The notes beneath the pieces were generated by a model. It was not told where the DNA came from and made no database searches. It was given only the letters and a program-made list of their open reading frames with translations. From Patescibacteria group bacterium (GTDB taxonomy: Bacteria; Patescibacteriota; UBA1384; 2-12-FULL-50-11), in assembly GCA_022843855.1 (NCBI GenBank), contig JALHMV010000002.1, forward strand, positions 14,496 to 78,495: a DNA stretch of 64,000 bases. The letters run 5' to 3'. Each line of letters opens with the position of its first letter. Within the stretch, counting starts at the first letter, position 1. Both the position numbers and the translations under genes were made by a program. Below are positions 847 to 31,473 of the stretch, in pieces.

Positions 847-1146
847 TCCGGAGTAGCTCAGCGGTAGAGCAGTGCGCTGTAGACTTAATTTGCAGCCCGC
901 GAGGGAAACGTCGCGGTGAACATTGGGAGGATTGCGGGAAGCCTAAAGTCTGAGAATGGCGATGGTAATCCGCAGCCGAGCCTTGTTCCATACGTCATAT
1001 ATGTCTTATGGTCGGGGAAGGTTCAGAGGCCATGCACCCAACAGCTAAGGCGAAAGCTAAGCTGAAGAGATGGTCCACGCCATTTGGAAACAAGTGGGTT
1101 GCGTGTAACGCATTGGTCGTCGGTTCGAATCCGACCTCCGGAGCCA
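847..1146 (+). tRNA. tRNA with an interrupted anticodon loop, most parsimoniously tRNA-Asn(GUU). Exon 1 is 847..880, the intron 881..1105, exon 2 1106..1146; CCA is encoded
   Basis: The 5' part is canonical: acceptor TCCGGAG, U8 A9, D-arm GCTC/AGCGGTA/GAGC, anticodon-stem 5' strand GTGCG, loop start CUGU. The 3' part is canonical: loop end UAA, CGCAU (closes the stem with one G-U pair), a 5-nt variable loop TGGTC, T-arm GTCGG TTCGAAT CCGAC, acceptor CTCCGGA, discriminator G, CCA. The acceptor strands pair perfectly. Confidence 0.6.
881..1105 (+). ncRNA. Putative group I self-splicing intron (225 nt) between anticodon-loop positions 35 and 36
   Basis: The 5' exon ends in U, the intron ends in G (omega G). 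The intron segment GCAG at 892-895 can pair with exon CUGU, giving a P1 helix with the U-G wobble at the splice site. GAAA-capped hairpins are present (CCGCGAGGGAAACGTCGCGG) and the sequence resembles the P7/P9 regions of known bacterial tRNA introns. No coding capacity; ORF 1008..1199 lies inside it. Confidence 0.5.
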
Positions 1147-4407: not shown

Positions 4408-4710
4408 ATGATCAGACAGTCGATCGCCGGCGGGACCGCCCATAGACTTCCGGTCGATCTCAAAAAAGTCCTCGCCGCCGACAACGCGGCACTGACCAAG
4501 TGGGAAAGCCTGACACCGCTCGCTCGCAACGAGTGGATCTGCTGGGTCGAATTCGTCAAACAAGAAAAGACCCGCCAAGAGCATCTCGCCCGCGTCGTCC
4601 CGGAGCTCAAAGCCGGCAAGCGCCGACCGTGCTGCTGGATCGGCTGCACTCACCGCACCGATAAGCCGCTCAACCCGACGCAGCAACGCCTGACCAACGC
4701 CGGTCGTTGA
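4408..4710 (+). CDS. YdeI/OmpD-associated family protein (short form)
   Basis: Pattern W-x-SLTP-x-ARNEWI-x-WV-x-KQE-x-TR is typical of that family. TAGAAT -10 and a GGAG RBS lie upstream. Confidence 0.55.
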   Translation: MIRQSIAGGTAHRLPVDLKKVLAADNAALTKWESLTPLARNEWICWVEFVKQEKTRQEHLARVVPELKAGKRRPCCWIGCTHRTDKPLNPTQQRLTNAGR

Positions 4711-4804
4711 CTTGCTATCGACCGTCGAGAGCGAACTATCCCTGGTGAGGCTGTCTGACCTCCGCCGGAGCGGCCGAGCCACGCTCGACTCCTGATCATT
4801 GATT

Positions 4805-4835
4805 TTGACAGGTATCGCGGGTTCGGCCTTAATAG
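4805..4835 (+). promoter_or_regulatory. Promoter candidate TTGACA-19-TAATAG upstream of the giant beta-helix gene
   Basis: Read directly. The spacing is slightly long. Confidence 0.2.
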
Positions 4836-4858
4836 AAGTATGTCCTCACGCCAAACAA

Positions 4859-7800
4859 ATGGATAAACAGCTACTCAATCGAAAGCGCCTTCGCGTTCTG
4901 GCCGGAGCGGCAGGCGGCGCGTTAGTCGTGATCCTTGTCGCGACCGGGCTATGGTTTCGGGGCGACCAAGAGAACAACAACCTCGCCCAGATCGGAGCCC
5001 CGATCGTCTTTCGAACCAACACTAGCGTTGAGCCAGGTGACACCATCAACGTTATCGGCTCGTTTAACGAGACGGCGCGCGTCTTTTTTCAGGTCATTAC
5101 GAACACCGGTCAGCGAGGGCCTGAACAGAGCTTATCGATCAATAATCAGAGCGGATCGCTTATCCAAGCCGTTCTCCCAGCAGACATTGACGGTTCGTTT
5201 CTTGGCGTGGTCAAGGTAAGGCAAACCGTCGGGTCGGTTGAGAACGTTGAGAGTAACGAACTACTGATCAACGCCCCTCAAGTCAACCACTTTATTACCG
5301 AAGACGTCGCCCCAGGCGAGACGCTTGATATCTTTGGTCGGGATCTCGTTCCCGATCGGGTCAGTACCAAGCGCTTCAGCGCCAGTCGTGTCTATTTTGA
5401 GCGAGACGGGCGACGATACGAAGCGCCGGTCATCAGCGGTGACTGGCTCCACCTTACGGTTCGCGTACCGAACAACCTTCCGCCAGCGAACGACTATCGT
5501 CTGATTATCTCAAACGGTTTGGGCGGCTCGGCAGGAGAAGTGGCAACCACCCGACCGTTATCGGCTGTCCGCGCTGGCACCGATGATAGTCTCGGGCTCG
5601 GAGTCAATTGGGCACGGGAGCTTGATTTTATCAACGATCAGAGTCGAACGATTAACGTCAAGACGGATGGACGCCTCATTGTCAGGGCGATCGGTGACGG
5701 CGTTGCCAACGATCTGCCTGCGTTGCAGGCGGCGATCGATCTTGCGAGCCAACTCGGTGGTGGCGTTGTGTTTGTTCCAGAAGGAACCTATCGTCTTGAT
5801 CTTAACGCCGGTAGTACGATCAGCCTCAAACAACGCGTCGTCGTGCGCGGCAGCGGTAAGGAGAAAACCCGGCTGGTCTACGGCAGCGTCGATCAACCCG
5901 ATAATAAGCGCCTCCTAACCTTCAACCAAGACGCTGATGGCGGACACGCGGGTCTGACAAGTCTGACAATCGAAAACATTAATCACCAAAACCCGAACCC
6001 CGCGCTCCGGGGGCTACCGTGGGCAACCGGCATCGATCTCGGAACCGCTGACTATATCTTTCTGCATCAGGTTCAATATCTGATGGGTAGTAACGACGGG
6101 CTTGGATCTGACTTTGTCAGCCGACTGTTGATTGCTGAGAGCGAATTTATTAATCGCCTCGCGCTCGATCGGAACGTCTTCAATTTTCGTGGCCATATTC
6201 CGCTACAGGCCGTCTCACCAGAACGCCAAAAGAGCGCTGGGCGCTACAACCTCATACGTAACAGCCGATTTGTCTATATCAACGACCGGTTTACCACGCT
6301 CGGTTGGCAAGATAGCGCGCTTATCGGCAACGAAATCACTCGCGATCTTCAGGCAAAGCCCGATCTCCAACGGCACACCGGCTGTTGCAGCGGCGGCTTG
6401 TCGTTCAACTTCAGTAACGATGCGTCGTTTATCGGCAACACCGTTCAGACGATTAACGGCTTCAACCGGCACGGCAATAACGACGGCGAAGGCATCGGCA
6501 GCGAACAGTGGACCGATTATCTCTGGCACCGAGGAACCGTCACGACAGCGACAGCGACGACGCTCGGTGACGCGTCGAGAAAATGGGACACCAGCAATCG
6601 CTGGCCGACGTACAACAACGGCAAAAACTTCGGCCAACCGAAACGAATCGGCACACCCGGATACAATCCGAGCACGGATTACAACAGCGATGGGATCGAC
6701 AGCGATATACCTGCCGATCTCCCGCCCGGTAGTCGGATCGTTCCGTGGGCGCACTACCAACAAGTGATCGTCGCAATTACCGATGGGCATGGCTTCGGCC
6801 AGTGGCGTCGCGTCGTAGGCCATAGTCCAACCGAGCTAACCGTCGACCGGCCGTGGGATGTGATACCTGACAAAACTAGCTCATACAAAGTACTAGTGGC
6901 GACCAATCTCGGTATCACTGTCGCCAATAACCAAGTCCGCGGCAGCGCTGTTGGGATTAATTTCTACGACGGAGTGATCGACTCGCTGATCGCCAATAAC
7001 ACGGTGATTGACGGCGGAGAGATTAGCATCCTGGCCAAAGACCTCCACGGCGGTTACGCGCACAAATCGTGTGACTTTATGGGACACGTTGACGGACCAT
7101 ATTCCCCGCTTCGACAAGCCGGTTTGCGGACCGAACTTGAAAACGTGCCGGCCGCCTACAACGATTGTACGATGCAATCGCTTTCCTGGGACAACGATTT
7201 GATCGGCAACCGAACAGAAAATACTACCGGCCTCTACGTTTCGAGAATCTTTCTCTTGGCGAACAATTTTATCAACGGGAGCGATCACGACGACCAGGAC
7301 TACGTGACCGACTGCAATAGCGACGGGCGCGTTGATTGGGCTGATGTACCGTGCAGCAACGATTATAAAAAGGACCTGCCGGCGCCGTCACACGGAAACG
7401 CGATACTCAATACGACGCTGCGACGTAACACAATCGTCGCTCACCCAACCGCGCTGATGGATAATAACTATCTGCGAAATATTCCGGGGAACGCCGCCAA
7501 GAACGCCGATATCGACTTTGCTTCGCGCGAGCGATTTTATATCGTCGCCGGCGGTTCGGCGCAAGGGATGGTACAAAACGTGCAAGCCGGCGCCAAGCAC
7601 ATCGTCGGGACAGTCCTCGACGACAACGTGATCACCAACTTCAGCGTCTCTGCTGACGACAGTGCCTACAGCTTTTCGCTTGGCACGGCTCAGACCTCCC
7701 TCAAAAGCGACCAACAGCCAGCTCAGTCGTACTGTTACCGAACTAATCTCGGTCGTTCGGACAATCGGGCGTCATCGATTCGATTGATCGTCACCGACCC

Positions 7801-9949: not shown

Positions 9950-11281
9950 ATGAGCTCGACGCGCCGGATCTTTCTCTTCATCGCCCTGCCGCTGGTAGCG
10001 GTGTTTCTATTGATCGGCTACTTCTGGATAACGGACGTTGACAATAGCGGTCAACGAAAGACCGGCGACGGTCGCACGCAATACACGATCGACTGCCAAC
10101 CGCCCGACGAGCATCAGTGGTACCGCACCGATAATACTTTCCTCATCGATCATAAGAATCCAGACACCCTCTATGTCAGTGTCGAGTGGAAGGGCTTCTT
10201 CAAGTCAGTTGACGGCGGCGAGACCTGGACAAAAGTAGTGAACGGCATCTTCAGCGACCATATTGATAAAGTGACGAAAGAGAACTGCTACGGCGAGTAC
10301 CCAGCGGCGGTTATGGATCCAGAAAATCCCAACAGAATACTGCTAGCTACTTCCGGCTCTCCGGGTACTTTGAAAGACATTAACTCACAAGGCGGTGGCA
10401 TCTACGAAACTACCGACGGCGGCGAGAGTTGGACGCAGAAGATTCGCAACGACATGAACGTCTACTCGACCCGACTCGGGCTCGCGTTTAAACCTGGCGA
10501 CACTCAGACGTACTACTACGGCACCAGCGCTGCGCCGGCATCATATAACGAGGCCGATCAAACTAAGATATTCGTAACGAAAGGGATCATCTATCAGACA
10601 ACCGACAACGGGCAGACATGGACTGAACTTGAAACTGGTTTCATAAAGAACGCCCGACTAATGAGTATCATGGTCCACCCATCTAAGCCGGATACAATCA
10701 CGGCCGCAACAGCGGTCATCAACCGAAATATCGAGGGTCCGAACGATATCGCCGCCCAACAGATGGGTATCATCCAAACCACAGATGGCGGCAAAACGTG
10801 GAAGCGTGTCGACAACCTGCCGGTCGGCTACGAAGGCTCACAAGAAACAAAAGCGGCTCCGTCTAACGGTGACAATATGTTTCATATCCCCATGATCCAA
10901 GGCGACGACAATCTGCCGAAAGCTTTCTACTCACTTGACGGTGGGAAGACGTGGCTGGAGTCAGCTAAACATATGGACTCTGTTTCATACGACCCCCACG
11001 ATCTGAGCGGTAAGCGTCTACTCGGCTACTCTTGGCAGTGTATGGGTGAATGTCAAAAGACGCTCTGGCAAAGTCTCGACGCCGGTAAGTCCTGGCAGTC
11101 GTTCGGAACACTACCCAGCGAGATTAAGAACATCATGGATCAGAAAACTCGTGTACAGAACATCGTCTGGCATCCAACCAACAAGAGTACTTTCTTCATG
11201 ACTGGCGCCGGTGGTTTAGTCTGGAAGACAACTGACAACGGTTCGAGCTGGAACAAACTGCTCGACTACGGTCAATTATAG
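9950..11281 (+). CDS. BNR/Asp-box repeat beta-propeller protein with an N-terminal membrane anchor (paralog of 1444..2763)
   Basis: Asp-boxes SVDGGETW, TTDGGESW, TTDNGQTW, TTDGGKTW, SLDGGKTW, SLDAGKSW, TTDNGSSW. Shares the C-x-P-x-D-x-x-QWYRTD motif with the paralog. Confidence 0.75.
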   Translation: MSSTRRIFLFIALPLVAVFLLIGYFWITDVDNSGQRKTGDGRTQYTIDCQPPDEHQWYRTDNTFLIDHKNPDTLYVSVEWKGFFKSVDGGETWTKVVNGIFSDHIDKVTKENCYGEYPAAVMDPENPNRILLATSGSPGTLKDINSQGGGIYETTDGGESWTQKIRNDMNVYSTRLGLAFKPGDTQTYYYGTSAAPASYNEADQTKIFVTKGIIYQTTDNGQTWTELETGFIKNARLMSIMVHPSKPDTITAATAVINRNIEGPNDIAAQQMGIIQTTDGGKTWKRVDNLPVGYEGSQETKAAPSNGDNMFHIPMIQGDDNLPKAFYSLDGGKTWLESAKHMDSVSYDPHDLSGKRLLGYSWQCMGECQKTLWQSLDAGKSWQSFGTLPSEIKNIMDQKTRVQNIVWHPTNKSTFFMTGAGGLVWKTTDNGSSWNKLLDYGQL

Positions 11282-19812: not shown

Positions 19813-21273
19813 ATGACCGAGAACAAATCAGAGGCGGCGATCCGGCTGGAGAAATTGGAGTCTCTCAAGAAACTTGGCGTCGATCCGTACCCACCGGCGA
19901 TTCCCAGCCACCAAACTATCGATCACGTCCGCACTCAAAAGGAAGGTGAGGCCGCGGCGACGGTTGGACGTATTTCGGCGATTCGCGAACACGGCAAATC
20001 GACGTTTATCGACCTCGTCGATGAGCAGAACAAGCTGCAAATTTACTTCAAGCAGGACGTTATCGGCGAGGCATCGTACAGCCACCTTCCGCTTTACGAC
20101 ATCGGTGACTTTCTTTGGGTTGAGGGTGAGTTGTTCGTTACAAAAGCCGGTGAGTTGTCCTTAAAAGCCTCAAAAGTCCAGCTGCTCGCCAAATCCCTCC
20201 TCCCAATCCCAGAGCATTGGCACGGCTTGTCTGACGTCGAGACACGCTACCGCTCCCGCACACTTGACTTCAAGATCAACGACAACGCCTACAAAACGAT
20301 TCAAACGCGCAGCAAAATCGTCGAATCAATCCGGGATTTCTTTATCCGTCACGGCTTCATCGAAATCCATACCCCAATCCTCCAGCCGATTCCGGGCGGT
20401 GCCGCGGCCAAGCCGTTTACCACTCACTACAACGTGCTCGACGCCGACTTCTACCTCCGCATCGCTCCAGAGCTTTACCTGAAGCGCCTGGTTGCCGGCG
20501 GGTTCAATCGAGTCTTCGAGATCGGGCCGAACTTCCGCAACGAAGGCCTGTCCCACATGCACAACCCCGAGTTCTACTCGTGCGAAGCCTATTGGGCGTA
20601 CCAGGACTACAACGGCTTCATGAAGACGACGCAAGACTTGGTCCAAGAACTCGTCAAGAAAGTACACGGTTCGCTAAAGATCACGTATCAAAATCAGCCG
20701 ATCGATTTTTCTACAGCCTTCGCCGTTAAAAAGTACGCTGACATCATCAAAAAGGATACCGGTATCGATATTGAAGCGTCCGACACGTTCGAAGCGCTCA
20801 AGGCGGCGATCGATAGCGCCGGGATCTCATTCGAGGGGCAAAAGATTACTGTCTGGAGCGAGTTGGTCGACGAGTTATTCAAGAAAATTTCGCGGCCAAA
20901 GATCGTCCAGCCAACCTTTGTTGTCGATTATCCGCTCGTCACCACCCCGCTCGCTAAGCGTCACCGCGACAACCCGAAGGTAGCGGAACGATTCCAGCTC
21001 ATCGCCGCCGGGGGCTTTGAACTCGTCAACGCTTACACCGAGCTCAACGACCCGCTTGATCAGGAAGCGCGCTTCCGCGAGCAGATGAAGATGGGCGAAG
21101 CAGGTTGGGACGAGGCGCAGACGCTCGACGAAAACTTCATCGAAGCCCTCAAGTTTGGGATGCCACCGACATCCGGCTGGGGTATGGGCATCGAGCGATT
21201 TGTTATGTTGCTCACCGACCAGCACTCAATCAAAGAAGTAATTCCGTTCCCAACCCTACGACCAAAAAAGTAG
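19813..21273 (+). CDS. lysS: Lysine--tRNA ligase (class II)
   Basis: OB anticodon-binding domain followed by class II motifs (FIEIHTP, FRNEG, GFELVNAYTELNDP, GMPPTSGWGMGIERF). Confidence 0.92.
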   Translation: MTENKSEAAIRLEKLESLKKLGVDPYPPAIPSHQTIDHVRTQKEGEAAATVGRISAIREHGKSTFIDLVDEQNKLQIYFKQDVIGEASYSHLPLYDIGDFLWVEGELFVTKAGELSLKASKVQLLAKSLLPIPEHWHGLSDVETRYRSRTLDFKINDNAYKTIQTRSKIVESIRDFFIRHGFIEIHTPILQPIPGGAAAKPFTTHYNVLDADFYLRIAPELYLKRLVAGGFNRVFEIGPNFRNEGLSHMHNPEFYSCEAYWAYQDYNGFMKTTQDLVQELVKKVHGSLKITYQNQPIDFSTAFAVKKYADIIKKDTGIDIEASDTFEALKAAIDSAGISFEGQKITVWSELVDELFKKISRPKIVQPTFVVDYPLVTTPLAKRHRDNPKVAERFQLIAAGGFELVNAYTELNDPLDQEARFREQMKMGEAGWDEAQTLDENFIEALKFGMPPTSGWGMGIERFVMLLTDQHSIKEVIPFPTLRPKK

Positions 21274-31067: not shown

Positions 31068-31216
31068 GGAAGAGTCGCCTTGATGGTCTATGTGAAGCCA
31101 GCTCCGCTGGCGGAAGAGGGCCACTTGGCAAAATGGAAGAGTCGCCTAGTGGCCTATCTTGAGCTTTGCGAAAGAAGGCCAGTTGGCAAAATGGAAGAGT
31201 CGCCTAGTGGCCTATG
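31068..31216 (+). repeat. Three tandem copies, increasingly degenerate upstream, of the 5' end of tRNA-Ser (GGAAGAGTCGCCTAGTGGCCTAT and flank) with a period of about 59-66 bp. The last copy is the real gene start
   Basis: The 38-nt blocks 31120-31157 and 31178-31215 match at 37 of 38 positions. A weaker copy lies at 31068-31091. Confidence 0.85.
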
Positions 31217-31279
31217 GCGCCGCCTTGGAAAGGCGGTTTACCCTCACGGGTATCGTGGGTTCAAATCCCACCTCTTCCG
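31193..31279 (+). tRNA. tRNA-Ser(GGA), type II with a long variable arm; CCA not encoded
   Basis: Acceptor GGAAGAG/CTCTTCC, anticodon loop TTGGAAA, variable stem-loop ACCC..GGGT, T-arm GTGGG TTCAAAT CCCAC, discriminator G. Confidence 0.85.
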
Positions 31280-31473
31280 CAGTACAAGGCAACTGCTCCC
31301 CGCACTTCTAGGATTCGTCCAGCGTGCCCGTTTCTCCCGTTGGTCGAAATCGTGGGTTCAAATCCCACCTCTTCCGCAGTACAAGGCAACTGCTCCCCGC
31401 ACTTCTAGGATTCGTCCAGCGTGCCCGTTTCTCCCGTTGGTCGAAATCGTGGGTTCAAATCCCACCTCTTCCG
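31280..31473 (+). repeat. Two identical 97-bp tandem units, each ending with the 3'-terminal 28 nt of tRNA-Ser (ATCGTGGGTTCAAATCCCACCTCTTCCG)
   Basis: 31280-31376 and 31377-31473 are identical. Each is an 69-nt spacer plus the tRNA 3' fragment. Confidence 0.95.

What the first reader, a model, noticed from the sequence alone, without database searches (positions are those of the whole stretch)
847..1146. tRNA (probably Asn-GUU) split by a roughly 225-nt group-I-like intron in the anticodon loop
Two canonical tRNA halves are 225 nt apart and the 7-bp acceptor arms pair perfectly. The 5' exon ends in U and the intron ends in G. An internal guide GCAG, 11 nt into the intron, can pair with exon CUGU to form a P1 helix with the U-G wobble at the splice site. 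The intron carries GAAA-capped hairpins and resembles the P7/P9 regions of known bacterial tRNA introns. Most annotation pipelines would miss or mis-call this tRNA, leaving the organism apparently short of a tRNA-Asn. The insertion point (35/36) and the tRNA identity (Asn rather than the better-known Leu, fMet, Ile or Arg hosts) would be unusual.
Basis: partly seen in the sequence, partly recalled or inferred. Interest (0 to 1): 0.7.

Follow-up and report, generated by a model that had tools for sequence, protein, structure and literature searches.

The report
Self-splicing intron inside a tRNA-Asn gene
The window holds a tRNA-Asn gene interrupted in its anticodon by a 225-base group I intron that almost certainly splices itself out; this arrangement was published in 2020 and 2026, so this is one more ordinary example.

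Summary
A tRNA-Asn(GUU) gene lies at 847-1143 with CCA encoded at 1144-1146. It is split between anticodon positions 35 and 36 by a 225-nt group I intron at 881-1105. Rfam Intron_gpI scores 66.5 bits against a gathering score of 50. ARAGORN in intron mode calls Asn(gtt) with exactly this intron. The U880-G892 wobble in P1, the terminal G1105 and every core helix P1-P9 are present. Across 15 homologous introns, 87-89% of the predicted pairs form, 42-44 of 66 pairs show changes on both sides, and the P4/J6-7 base triples covary in all 15.

The claim that host and site are unusual is out of date. Williams (bioRxiv 2020) lists the class as "Asn.4Ug". Nakagawa et al. (mSystems 2026) show that Asn 35/36 introns are common in Patescibacteria, that a tested tRNA-Asn example self-splices in vitro, and that tools often mis-call these genes as tRNA-Thr(UGU). 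The window's PNPase places it in that phylum.

The only local peculiarity is a compact core without the P7.1/P7.2 insert typical of the published subgroup IA examples.

Verdict: real, well supported, a new member of a known kind, and of low interest.

The parts
847..880 (+). tRNA-Asn 5' exon: acceptor strand 847-853, D-arm 856-870, anticodon-stem strand 872-876, loop C32 U33 G34 U35 at 877-880
   Evidence: Sequence. In-silico splicing gives an ARAGORN tRNA-Asn(gtt) cloverleaf.
881..1105 (+). Group I intron, 225 nt, with no ORF
   Evidence: Rfam RF00028 at 66.5 bits against a gathering score of 50. ARAGORN -i gives the same intron borders. Covariation supports the fold.
876..896 (+). P1 helix, 876-883 paired with 889-896. 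The internal guide sequence is GCAGC at 892-896. The 5' splice site follows U880, which forms a wobble pair with G892.
   Evidence: Pair list. The U-G wobble and the three flanking exon pairs are invariant in 15 of 15 homologues.
897..916 (+). P2 hairpin with a GAAA tetraloop at 905-908
   Evidence: MFE fold. All 7 pairs show changes on both sides among the homologues.
923..929 (+). P3, 5' strand, which pairs with 1035-1041
   Evidence: Rfam alignment. 89-96% of cells are paired, and 3-5 of the 6 pairs show changes on both sides.
933..974 (+). P4 (933-938 with 969-974) enclosing P5 and P5a (941-966). P5 carries a motif like a tetraloop receptor (CCUAAAG...GAUGG).
   Evidence: The P4/P5 helix is 92.6% paired. 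Base pairs 2 and 3 of P4 covary with J6/7 in 15 of 15 sequences.
975..1022 (+). P6 (975-977 with 1020-1022) plus the extensions P6a and P6b (981-1017). P6b is specific to the window.
   Evidence: P6b is deleted in the closest relative, L123.
1023..1034 (+). J6/7 (U1023 C1024) and the P7 5' strand (G1026, then G1028-A1032). The inferred guanosine-binding pair is G1028-C1075. Only 2 nt (1033-1034) separate P7 from the P3 3' strand, so there is no P7.1/P7.2.
   Evidence: Rfam alignment. P7 is 98.9% paired. The window and L123 carry a compensated U:A to C:G change in P7.
1035..1041 (+). P3, 3' strand
1042..1064 (+). P8 hairpin with an internal loop like a tetraloop receptor (GCUAAG/UAAGC) and a GAAA loop at 1052-1055
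   Evidence: 91-98% of cells are paired with compensatory changes.
1065..1076 (+). J8/7 (AAGAGA) and the P7 3' strand (U1071-C1076)
1080..1097 (+). P9 hairpin with a GAAA tetraloop at 1087-1090
   Evidence: All five pairs next to the loop show changes on both sides.
1105..1105 (+). Terminal guanosine (omega G). The 3' splice site follows it.
   Evidence: A G sits at this position in the window, in all 28 genome homologues and in L123.
1106..1146 (+). tRNA-Asn 3' exon: U36 A37 A38, anticodon-stem strand 1109-1113, variable loop, T-arm 1119-1135, acceptor strand 1136-1142, discriminator G1143, encoded CCA at 1144-1146
   Evidence: L123 has identical exons around a diverged intron.

Best explanation
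The locus is a functional tRNA-Asn(GUU) gene from a bacterial chromosome, probably Patescibacteria/CPR. A compact 225-nt group I ribozyme interrupts the anticodon between U35 and U36.

After transcription the intron folds into the standard P1-P9 core. The internal guide GCAGC (892-896) pairs with the exon sequence GCUGU (876-880). This presents the U880-G892 wobble pair as the 5' splice site. A free guanosine bound at the P7 pocket (the G1028-C1075 pair) attacks after U880. G1105 then takes the guanosine's place in the pocket, and the freed 3'-OH of U880 attacks after G1105. The exons are joined, giving a 75-nt tRNA with the loop CUGUUAA.

What is shown here: the sequence, the fold, its conservation and the junctions. 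What is inferred: the catalysis itself, which rests on the established group I mechanism and on published in vitro splicing of one tested tRNA-Asn intron of this class. The L2/L9 GAAA-to-receptor tertiary contacts are proposed by analogy with the Azoarcus intron. Until the intron is removed the RNA has no anticodon loop, so splicing is required before the tRNA can decode Asn codons.
For: - Rfam Intron_gpI scores 66.5 bits (gathering score 50), E 1.2e-14, over 877-1097.
- ARAGORN -i calls tRNA-Asn(gtt) with a 225-nt intron at 881-1105. The spliced product folds as a 75-nt cloverleaf with G73 and an encoded CCA.
- Its best matches in annotated phage genomes are intron-less genes annotated tRNA-Asn, up to 82.7% identical over the full length. 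No tRNA-Thr appears among the listed top hits.
Of the 16 such loci scanned with Rfam, 12 reach the gathering score.
- On two alignments of 15 introns, 86.7% and 88.7% of cells pair, against 34-44% when the partners are slid. 42 and 44 of 66 pairs show changes on both sides. The covariation score is 0.45 against at most 0.12, and 0 of 500 shuffles reach it.
- The splice-site U-G wobble is present in 15 of 15 sequences.
- P4 base pairs 2 and 3 covary with the two J6/7 nucleotides in 15 of 15 sequences, which is the tertiary base-triple signature of group I introns.
- Metagenome locus L123 has exons identical to the window's and an intron only 70% identical. Of the mapped pairs, 37 are kept and 10 are compensated. 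L123 itself hits Rfam at 57 bits.
- Published in vitro assays on one tRNA-Asn and one tRNA-Asp intron of this class show precise GTP-dependent excision at 35/36, and changing the terminal G to C blocks exon ligation (PMC13011429).
Against: - There is no expression or splicing data for this locus.
- No sigma-70-like promoter or intrinsic terminator was found on the + strand around the gene, although the scan is crude and may not suit this organism.
- P10 is weak: only A1107-U890 and A1108-U889 can pair.
- G1029-U1074 lies next to the inferred guanosine-binding pair, where the consensus has A-U.
- The rest of the genome is not available, so I cannot say whether this is the only tRNA-Asn gene.
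Confidence: 0.93

Rival explanations
1. The same intron, but placed two bases upstream: a 5' splice site after U878 and a 3' splice site after G1103. That would make the gene a tRNA-Thr(UGU) with the intron at 33/34.
For: U878 and G1103 also satisfy the rule of a U before the 5' splice site and a G at the intron's end. ARAGORN accepts that spliced product as tRNA-Thr(tgt). Published tools make exactly this call for many homologues (Table 1 of PMC13011429). The intron's 3' end (G1101 C1102 G1103) can pair with C1109-C1111 to form a mimic of the anticodon stem with loop UGUAA.
Against: In P1, U878 forms a Watson-Crick pair with A894, while the wobble pair is U880-G892. Both are invariant in 15 of 15 homologues. 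Homologues whose introns end in AUG, CUG, UUG, CAG or GAG cannot use the shifted junction, yet they share the same architecture. U1-A72 and G73 are features of bacterial tRNA-Asn (established knowledge). The best matches are to annotated tRNA-Asn genes. For a homologue, sequencing of the product spliced in vitro showed the 35/36 junction.
Confidence: 0.03
2. The intron is decayed and no longer splices, so the locus is a tRNA pseudogene and Asn codons are read by another gene copy.
For: There is no expression data and no promoter or terminator consensus match. P7 differs from the family consensus. The genome outside the window cannot be checked for a second tRNA-Asn.
Against: Every core helix is intact, and the P7 difference is compensated (U:A to C:G) and shared with L123. 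The exons are identical to those of L123 although the intron is 30% diverged with compensatory changes. That pattern indicates selection on both the tRNA and the ribozyme fold. [quoted passage not shown]
Confidence: 0.04

Closest known systems
Group I introns at position 35/36 of tRNA-Asn(GUU) in Patescibacteria (Nakagawa et al., mSystems 2026, PMC13011429). The same class is 'Asn.4Ug' in Williams, bioRxiv 2020, doi 10.1101/2020.01.27.920355.
   Same: The host tRNA, the insertion site (CUGU | UAA), the U before the 5' splice site and the terminal G are all the same. So is the GCAG guide sequence that pairs with CUGU. The intron has no homing endonuclease gene, as in most members. The gene escapes default tRNA finders and is open to the same 2-nt shifted Thr(UGU) mis-call. 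The host phylum is probably the same.
   Different: The published Patescibacteria examples are nearly all assigned to subgroup IA, and many of the homologues I collected carry a roughly 40-nt P7.1/P7.2-like insert between P7 and the P3 3' strand. The window's intron has only 2 nt there. It also has an 'AAG' start to J8/7 rather than 'AUG', a P6b extension of its own, and a P7 variant (AGAGGCCA/AUGGUCC). It is only about 52% identical to the Williams seed Pam37.Asn.4Ug.
Azoarcus pre-tRNA-Ile(CAU) and Anabaena/Nostoc pre-tRNA-Leu(UAA) introns (subgroup IC3, the classical bacterial tRNA introns)
   Same: They share the compact size of about 200-250 nt and the P1-P9 core without P5abc or P7.1/P7.2. 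P2 and P9 are capped by GAAA loops, and P8 and P5 carry motifs like tetraloop receptors. They sit in the anticodon loop and use the same self-splicing chemistry. Pairwise identity to the seeds is 54-56%.
   Different: The host tRNA and insertion site differ (36/37 in Ile, 34/35 in Leu). The window's P4/J6-7 combination is G-C, C-G with UC, where Azoarcus has C-G, G-C with GU. I could not test subgroup membership with subgroup covariance models.
Tyr.4Ug and Asp.4Ug introns (Williams 2020 seeds; tRNA-Asp and tRNA-Tyr 35/36 in Nakagawa 2026)
   Same: The 5' exon context (CUGU) and the GCAG guide are the same, so the same P1 helix can form in any tRNA with a GUN anticodon.
   Different: The host tRNA and the first base of the 3' exon differ. 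Identity to the window's intron is 50-53%.

Membership tests
Group I intron (Rfam RF00028) | Covariance-model score at or above the curated gathering score | tested here: met
   66.5 bits against a gathering score of 50, E 1.2e-14, full-length model match.
Group I intron (Rfam RF00028) | P1 helix formed by the 5' exon and an internal guide sequence, with a U-G wobble pair at the 5' splice site | tested here: met
   876-883 pairs with 889-896, and U880-G892 is the wobble pair. The wobble and the flanking exon pairs are invariant in 15 of 15 homologues.
Group I intron (Rfam RF00028) | Terminal guanosine (omega G) before the 3' splice site | tested here: met
   G1105. A G is in this position in all 28 genome homologues and in L123.
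Group I intron (Rfam RF00028) | Conserved core of P3-P9, including the P3/P7 pseudoknot, supported by covariation | tested here: met
   86.7-88.7% of cells pair, against 34-44% when slid. 42-44 of 66 pairs show changes on both sides. P7 is 98.9% paired.
Group I intron (Rfam RF00028) | Base triples between J6/7 and P4 (tertiary covariation, Michel and Westhof) | tested here: met
   P4 base pairs 2 and 3 against J6/7: G-C, C-G goes with UC; C-G, A-U goes with GC; C-G, G-C goes with GU. There are no exceptions among 15 sequences.
Group I intron (Rfam RF00028) | Guanosine-dependent self-splicing | not testable with these tools
   Shown in vitro for one tRNA-Asn 35/36 intron of the class (PMC13011429), not for this sequence.
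Bacterial tRNA-Asn(GUU) | The spliced product folds into a cloverleaf with a 7-nt loop carrying GUU | tested here: met
   ARAGORN calls tRNA-Asn(gtt), 75 nt, from both the spliced and the unspliced sequence.
Bacterial tRNA-Asn(GUU) | U1-A72 first pair and G73 discriminator (bacterial Asn features, established knowledge) | tested here: met
   T847-A1142 and G1143. All 28 homologues begin with T and are followed by G.
Bacterial tRNA-Asn(GUU) | Closest intron-less relatives are tRNA-Asn genes | tested here: met
   The top annotated matches in the phage collection are tRNA-Asn, at 82.7% over all 75 nt.
Asn 35/36 ('Asn.4Ug') intron class | Intron lies between anticodon positions 35 and 36 of tRNA-Asn | tested here: met
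   CUGU(880) | intron | U(1106)AA.
Asn 35/36 ('Asn.4Ug') intron class | Host is a member of Patescibacteria, where the class is enriched | tested here: inconclusive
   Every named relative of the window's PNPase is Ca. Berkelbacteria, Saccharimonadales or 'Patescibacteria group', at 63-76% identity. The source record itself could not be retrieved.
Group I subgroup IA (the assignment of 25 of 28 published 35/36 introns) | Extra P7.1/P7.2 helices between the P7 5' strand and the P3 3' strand | tested here: not met
   Only U1033 and G1034 lie between A1032 and C1035. Six homologues (L078, L051, L101, L086, L042, L116) have about 40 extra nt there, and the window, L123, L071, L120 and L017 do not.
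Group I subgroup IC3 | Best score with a subgroup-specific covariance model | not testable with these tools
   No subgroup models are available. Pairwise identity to IC3 seeds (0.54-0.56) and to the Asn.4Ug seed (0.52) does not separate them.

The most novel reading that the evidence does not exclude
The window's intron, together with L123, L071 and L120, may represent a compact lineage without P7.1/P7.2, possibly IC3-like, at the Asn 35/36 site in a Patescibacteria genome. The published survey assigned no Patescibacteria tRNA intron to subgroup IC. If so, either a second intron lineage captured the CUGU target independently, or an IA intron was stripped down to an IC3-like minimal core.
Probability: 0.3. 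Interest if true: 0.25.

Novelty: new member of a known kind. Interest (0 to 1): 0.15.

Why it matters
The main value is for annotation. Default tRNA finders miss this gene, so the genome would look as if it lacked tRNA-Asn and would be marked down for completeness. Intron-aware tools can also mis-call it as tRNA-Thr(UGU). As biology it adds one more, structurally compact, example to a class that is already published and experimentally validated. It does not open a new question.

Tried and rejected
- Alternative splice junctions. I spliced five junction combinations in silico. Only 880/1106 gives a 7-nt loop with the splice site at the P1 wobble pair. The Thr(UGU) reading at 878/1104 was rejected on P1 geometry, on homologues that cannot use it, and on tRNA identity features.
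- Source record. Exact-match look-ups of three window proteins and of P0001 found nothing. Taxonomy therefore rests on named PNPase relatives.
- The class II aminoacyl-tRNA synthetase at 19813-21273. I checked whether it was AsnRS, but it is LysRS and not relevant.
- Promoter and terminator. The scan found nothing on the + strand near the gene. The only promoter-like site, at 754-726 on the minus strand, fits the divergent gene that starts near 690.
- Homing endonuclease. The intron is 225 nt with no ORF. The mechanical ORF at 617-991 on the minus strand overlaps the tRNA and is taken as spurious.
- Subgroup assignment. Pairwise identity to 11 Williams seeds ranged from 0.42 to 0.60 and did not separate the subgroups.
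- Intron-less alleles. The metagenome scan with the exact 5' exon returned one locus, L123, and it is also interrupted. I saw no intron-less allele of this exact tRNA.

Full report
**1. Checking the observation**

The sequence at 847-1146 reads as two tRNA halves. The 5' half is 847-880: TCCGGAG TA GCTC AGCGGTA GAGC A GTGCG CUGU. The 3' half is 1106-1143: UAA CGCAU UGGUC GUCGG UUCGAAU CCGAC CUCCGGA G. CCA follows at 1144-1146. The halves are 225 nt apart.

ARAGORN in default mode finds only a tRNA-Ser at 31193-31280 in the whole window. When 847-880 is joined to 1106-1147, ARAGORN reports a 75-nt tRNA-Asn(gtt) cloverleaf. In intron mode on the unspliced DNA it calls tRNA-Asn(gtt) with a 225-nt intron whose sequence is exactly 881-1105. 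Rfam's Intron_gpI model matches 877-1097 on the + strand over its full length, at 66.5 bits against a gathering score of 50, E 1.2e-14. It is the only other Rfam hit in the 64-kb window.

**2. Anatomy of the intron**

I combined the Rfam alignment, the MFE fold (-86 kcal/mol, z = -2.5) and comparison with homologues. The intron has a complete, compact group I core (pair list):

- P1 is 876-883 with 889-896. The guide GCAGC (892-896) pairs with exon GCUGU, and U880-G892 is the splice-site wobble.
- P2 is 897-916, with a GAAA loop.
- P3 is 923-929 with 1035-1041.
- P4 is 933-938 with 969-974.
- P5 and P5a are 941-966.
- P6, P6a and P6b are 975-1022.
- P7 is 1026 and 1028-1032 with 1071-1076. G1028-C1075 sits in the position of the guanosine-binding pair.
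- P8 is 1042-1064, with a GAAA loop.
- P9 is 1080-1097, with a GAAA loop.
- The terminal G is G1105.

P8 (GCUAAG/UAAGC) and P5 (CCUAAAG/GAUGG) resemble 11-nt GAAA-tetraloop receptors. I therefore propose L2-P8 and L9-P5 contacts like those in the Azoarcus intron. This is inference from inspection and was not tested.

Only two nucleotides (1033-1034) separate P7 from the P3 3' strand, so there is no P7.1/P7.2. The intron has no ORF.

**3. Is it more than chance, and is it under selection?**

I scanned one genome per species for a tRNA-Asn-type D-arm and anticodon stem followed by CTGT and then any base except T. Among these, 28 loci have a U1 acceptor stem, a 188-586 nt insert directly after CUGU that ends in G, and UAA next. 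All 28 splice in silico to ARAGORN tRNA-Asn(gtt). They come from Omnitrophota, Saccharibacteria and other Patescibacteria, Elusimicrobia, Nitrospira, Clostridia, Gamma- and Deltaproteobacteria, a cyanobacterium and others. Of the 16 such loci I scanned with Rfam, 12 reach the Intron_gpI gathering score.

I projected the window's structure onto a MAFFT alignment of 15 of the shorter introns. In register, 86.7% of cells form standard pairs, against 36-44% when the 3' partners are slid by 1-3 columns. 42 of 66 pairs show changes on both sides. The covariation score is 0.447 against at most 0.12, and no shuffle out of 500 reaches any of the measures. A second alignment, which includes the closest relative and three viral copies, gives 88.7%, 44 of 66 and 0.443. 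The U-G wobble at the splice site and the three exon pairs next to it are invariant in 15 of 15.

A tertiary signature is also present. P4 base pairs 2 and 3 covary with the two J6/7 nucleotides without exception: G-C, C-G goes with UC; C-G, A-U goes with GC; C-G, G-C goes with GU.

**4. The closest relative**

Scanning metagenomes with the window's exact 34-nt 5' exon returned one contig, L123. Its two exons are identical to the window's, but its flanks are unrelated. Its intron is 189 nt, 70% identical, and hits Rfam at 57 bits. Of the window's 66 pairs, 37 are unchanged in L123, 10 are changed on both sides, 5 are changed on one side but still pair, and 5 appear broken. Most of the broken ones lie around a bulge in P4 and in P5, where the alignment is uncertain. 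Nine fall in P5a, P6b and P8a; P6b and P8a are simply absent in L123. L123 shares the window's unusual P7 (AGAGGCCA/AUGGUCC), in which a consensus U:A pair is replaced by C:G. Identical exons around a diverged but structurally compensated intron argue against a decaying pseudogene.

**5. Asn, not Thr**

A junction shifted by 2 nt (878/1104) also has a U before the 5' site and a G at the intron's end, and would give tRNA-Thr(UGU). I reject it for these reasons:

- In P1, U878 is in a Watson-Crick pair with A894, and the wobble is at U880. Both hold in 15 of 15 homologues.
- Homologues whose introns end in AUG, CUG, UUG, CAG or GAG cannot use the shifted site.
- U1-A72 and G73 are features of bacterial tRNA-Asn (established knowledge).
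- The spliced sequence best matches intron-less genes annotated tRNA-Asn, at 82.7% over 75 nt, with no Thr among the listed hits.
- For a homologue, the product spliced in vitro was sequenced and had the 35/36 junction.

The ambiguity has a visible cause in the sequence. The intron's last bases, GUUGCGUG, repeat the 5' anticodon-stem strand and can pair with C1109-C1111, forming a mimic of an anticodon stem.

**6. Source organism**

The window carries rpoD, dnaG, ftsK, pnp, lysS and a Mur ligase gene, so it is a bacterial chromosome. GC content is 52-59%. An identical PNPase is on record from an 89-kb NCBI contig. Every named relative, at 63-76% identity, is Ca. Berkelbacteria, Saccharimonadales or 'Patescibacteria group'. 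I therefore infer a Patescibacteria (CPR) origin. The record itself could not be retrieved.

**7. Comparison with what is known**

Williams (bioRxiv 2020) mapped group I introns in 80,413 bacterial and 1,028 archaeal genome assemblies and extended the four classical tRNA classes to 21. The seed alignment includes 'Pam37.Asn.4Ug', along with Tyr.4Ug and Asp.4Ug, all with a CUGU 5' exon.

Nakagawa et al. (mSystems 2026, PMC13011429) report the following:

[quoted passage not shown] This accounts for 15 tRNA-Asn genes among 95 genomes.
- One tRNA-Asn and one tRNA-Asp intron were tested in vitro. Both self-splice precisely, and changing the terminal G to C blocks exon ligation.
- ARAGORN and tFind often call these genes Thr(UGU) with the intron at 33/34.
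- 19 of 28 introns at 35/36 in 4,934 complete genomes are from Patescibacteria.
- 25 of those 28 were classed as subgroup IA, and no Patescibacteria tRNA intron was classed as IC.
- Only introns longer than 500 bp carry homing endonuclease genes.

tRNAscan-SE 2.0 states that it was not designed to detect such introns.

**8. What is specific to this copy**

It is compact. It lacks the P7.1/P7.2-like insert seen in six of the aligned homologues, has 'AAG' rather than 'AUG' at the start of J8/7, has its own P6b extension, and carries the compensated P7 variant. That variant also occurs in the Williams seed Mpe6.Lys.4Ug, which is the most similar seed at 60%. Identity to the IC3 seeds (54-56%) and to the Asn.4Ug seed (52%) does not settle the subgroup, and subgroup covariance models were not available. 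This is the only opening for modest novelty.

**9. Verdict**

[quoted passage not shown] It is a new member of a published and experimentally validated class. Interest is low, and the value is mainly in correcting annotation.

Noticed in passing
L041:894-1390 (+); contig JAFCDH010000004.1, 'Candidatus Pacearchaeota archaeon': A tRNA-Asn(GUU) with a G1-C72 acceptor pair, unlike the U1-A72 of the bacterial examples, is interrupted at the same 35/36 site by a 423-nt group I intron (Rfam 78.8 bits; ARAGORN -i calls Asn). The intron holds a 70-aa ORF at 943-1155 with no Pfam hit. Neighbouring genes include TYW3 and a Pno1/Krr1-type KH protein, families known from archaea and eukaryotes, so the contig looks archaeal. 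Nawrocki et al. 2018 found archaeal group I introns only in rRNA genes, and Williams 2020 dismissed a Pacearchaeota tRNA hit as probable mis-binning.
   Followed up: partly
L166:168-393 (-), L160:4362-4571 (-), L211:7863-8045 (+) (IMG/VR viral contigs): Viral contigs carry tRNA-Asn genes interrupted at 35/36 by 183-226 nt inserts that have a GCAGC guide and end in G. They sit within or near clusters of tRNA genes. L166 scores 96 bits with Rfam Intron_gpI and has a G1 acceptor pair. L160 and L211 did not reach the gathering score. Phages could be a route for spreading this intron class.
   Followed up: partly
L072:4661-4937 (+): The contig holding one of the window's nearest intron relatives has a second intron-split tRNA about 1.5 kb away. 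ARAGORN -i calls it Leu(caa) with a 207-nt intron, and Rfam Intron_gpI scores 56.4 bits at 4681-4887.
   Followed up: partly
window:1098-1111: The intron's 3' end, GUUGCGUG, repeats the 5' anticodon-stem strand (GUGCG, 872-876). It can pair with C1109-C1111 to form a mimic of the anticodon stem with loop UGUAA. This explains the Thr(UGU) mis-call. A U two bases before the 3' splice site is present in 13 of 15 aligned homologues.
   Followed up: partly
window:1028-1032 with 1071-1075: The P7 variant AGAGGCCA/AUGGUCC has a G-U next to the inferred guanosine-binding pair and a compensated U:A to C:G change. It is shared with L123 and with the Williams seed Mpe6.Lys.4Ug, but with none of the other 13 sequences in either alignment.
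   Followed up: partly
L041 (whole locus; 800-1500): A note on method. The 78.8-bit group I hit in L041 was not reported when 18 loci were scanned together at the gathering threshold, but it appeared when 700 nt were scanned alone. The speed filters can therefore lose strong introns. The apparent failures of L050, L105, L049 and L056 may have the same cause.
   Followed up: no
L225:13950-14017 (+), L236:2158-2232 (+) (viral contigs): These are tRNA-Asn-like genes with 68-75 nt inserts at the same CUGU | UAA site. The inserts do not end in G and are too short for a group I core. Their nature is unknown.
   Followed up: no
window:1444-2763 (+) and 9950-11281 (+): Two paralogous proteins of about 440 aa with BNR/Asp-box and sortilin-Vps10 repeats lie downstream of the tRNA gene. 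A minus-strand gene starting near 690 begins with a sequence that looks like a lipoprotein signal peptide.
   Followed up: no
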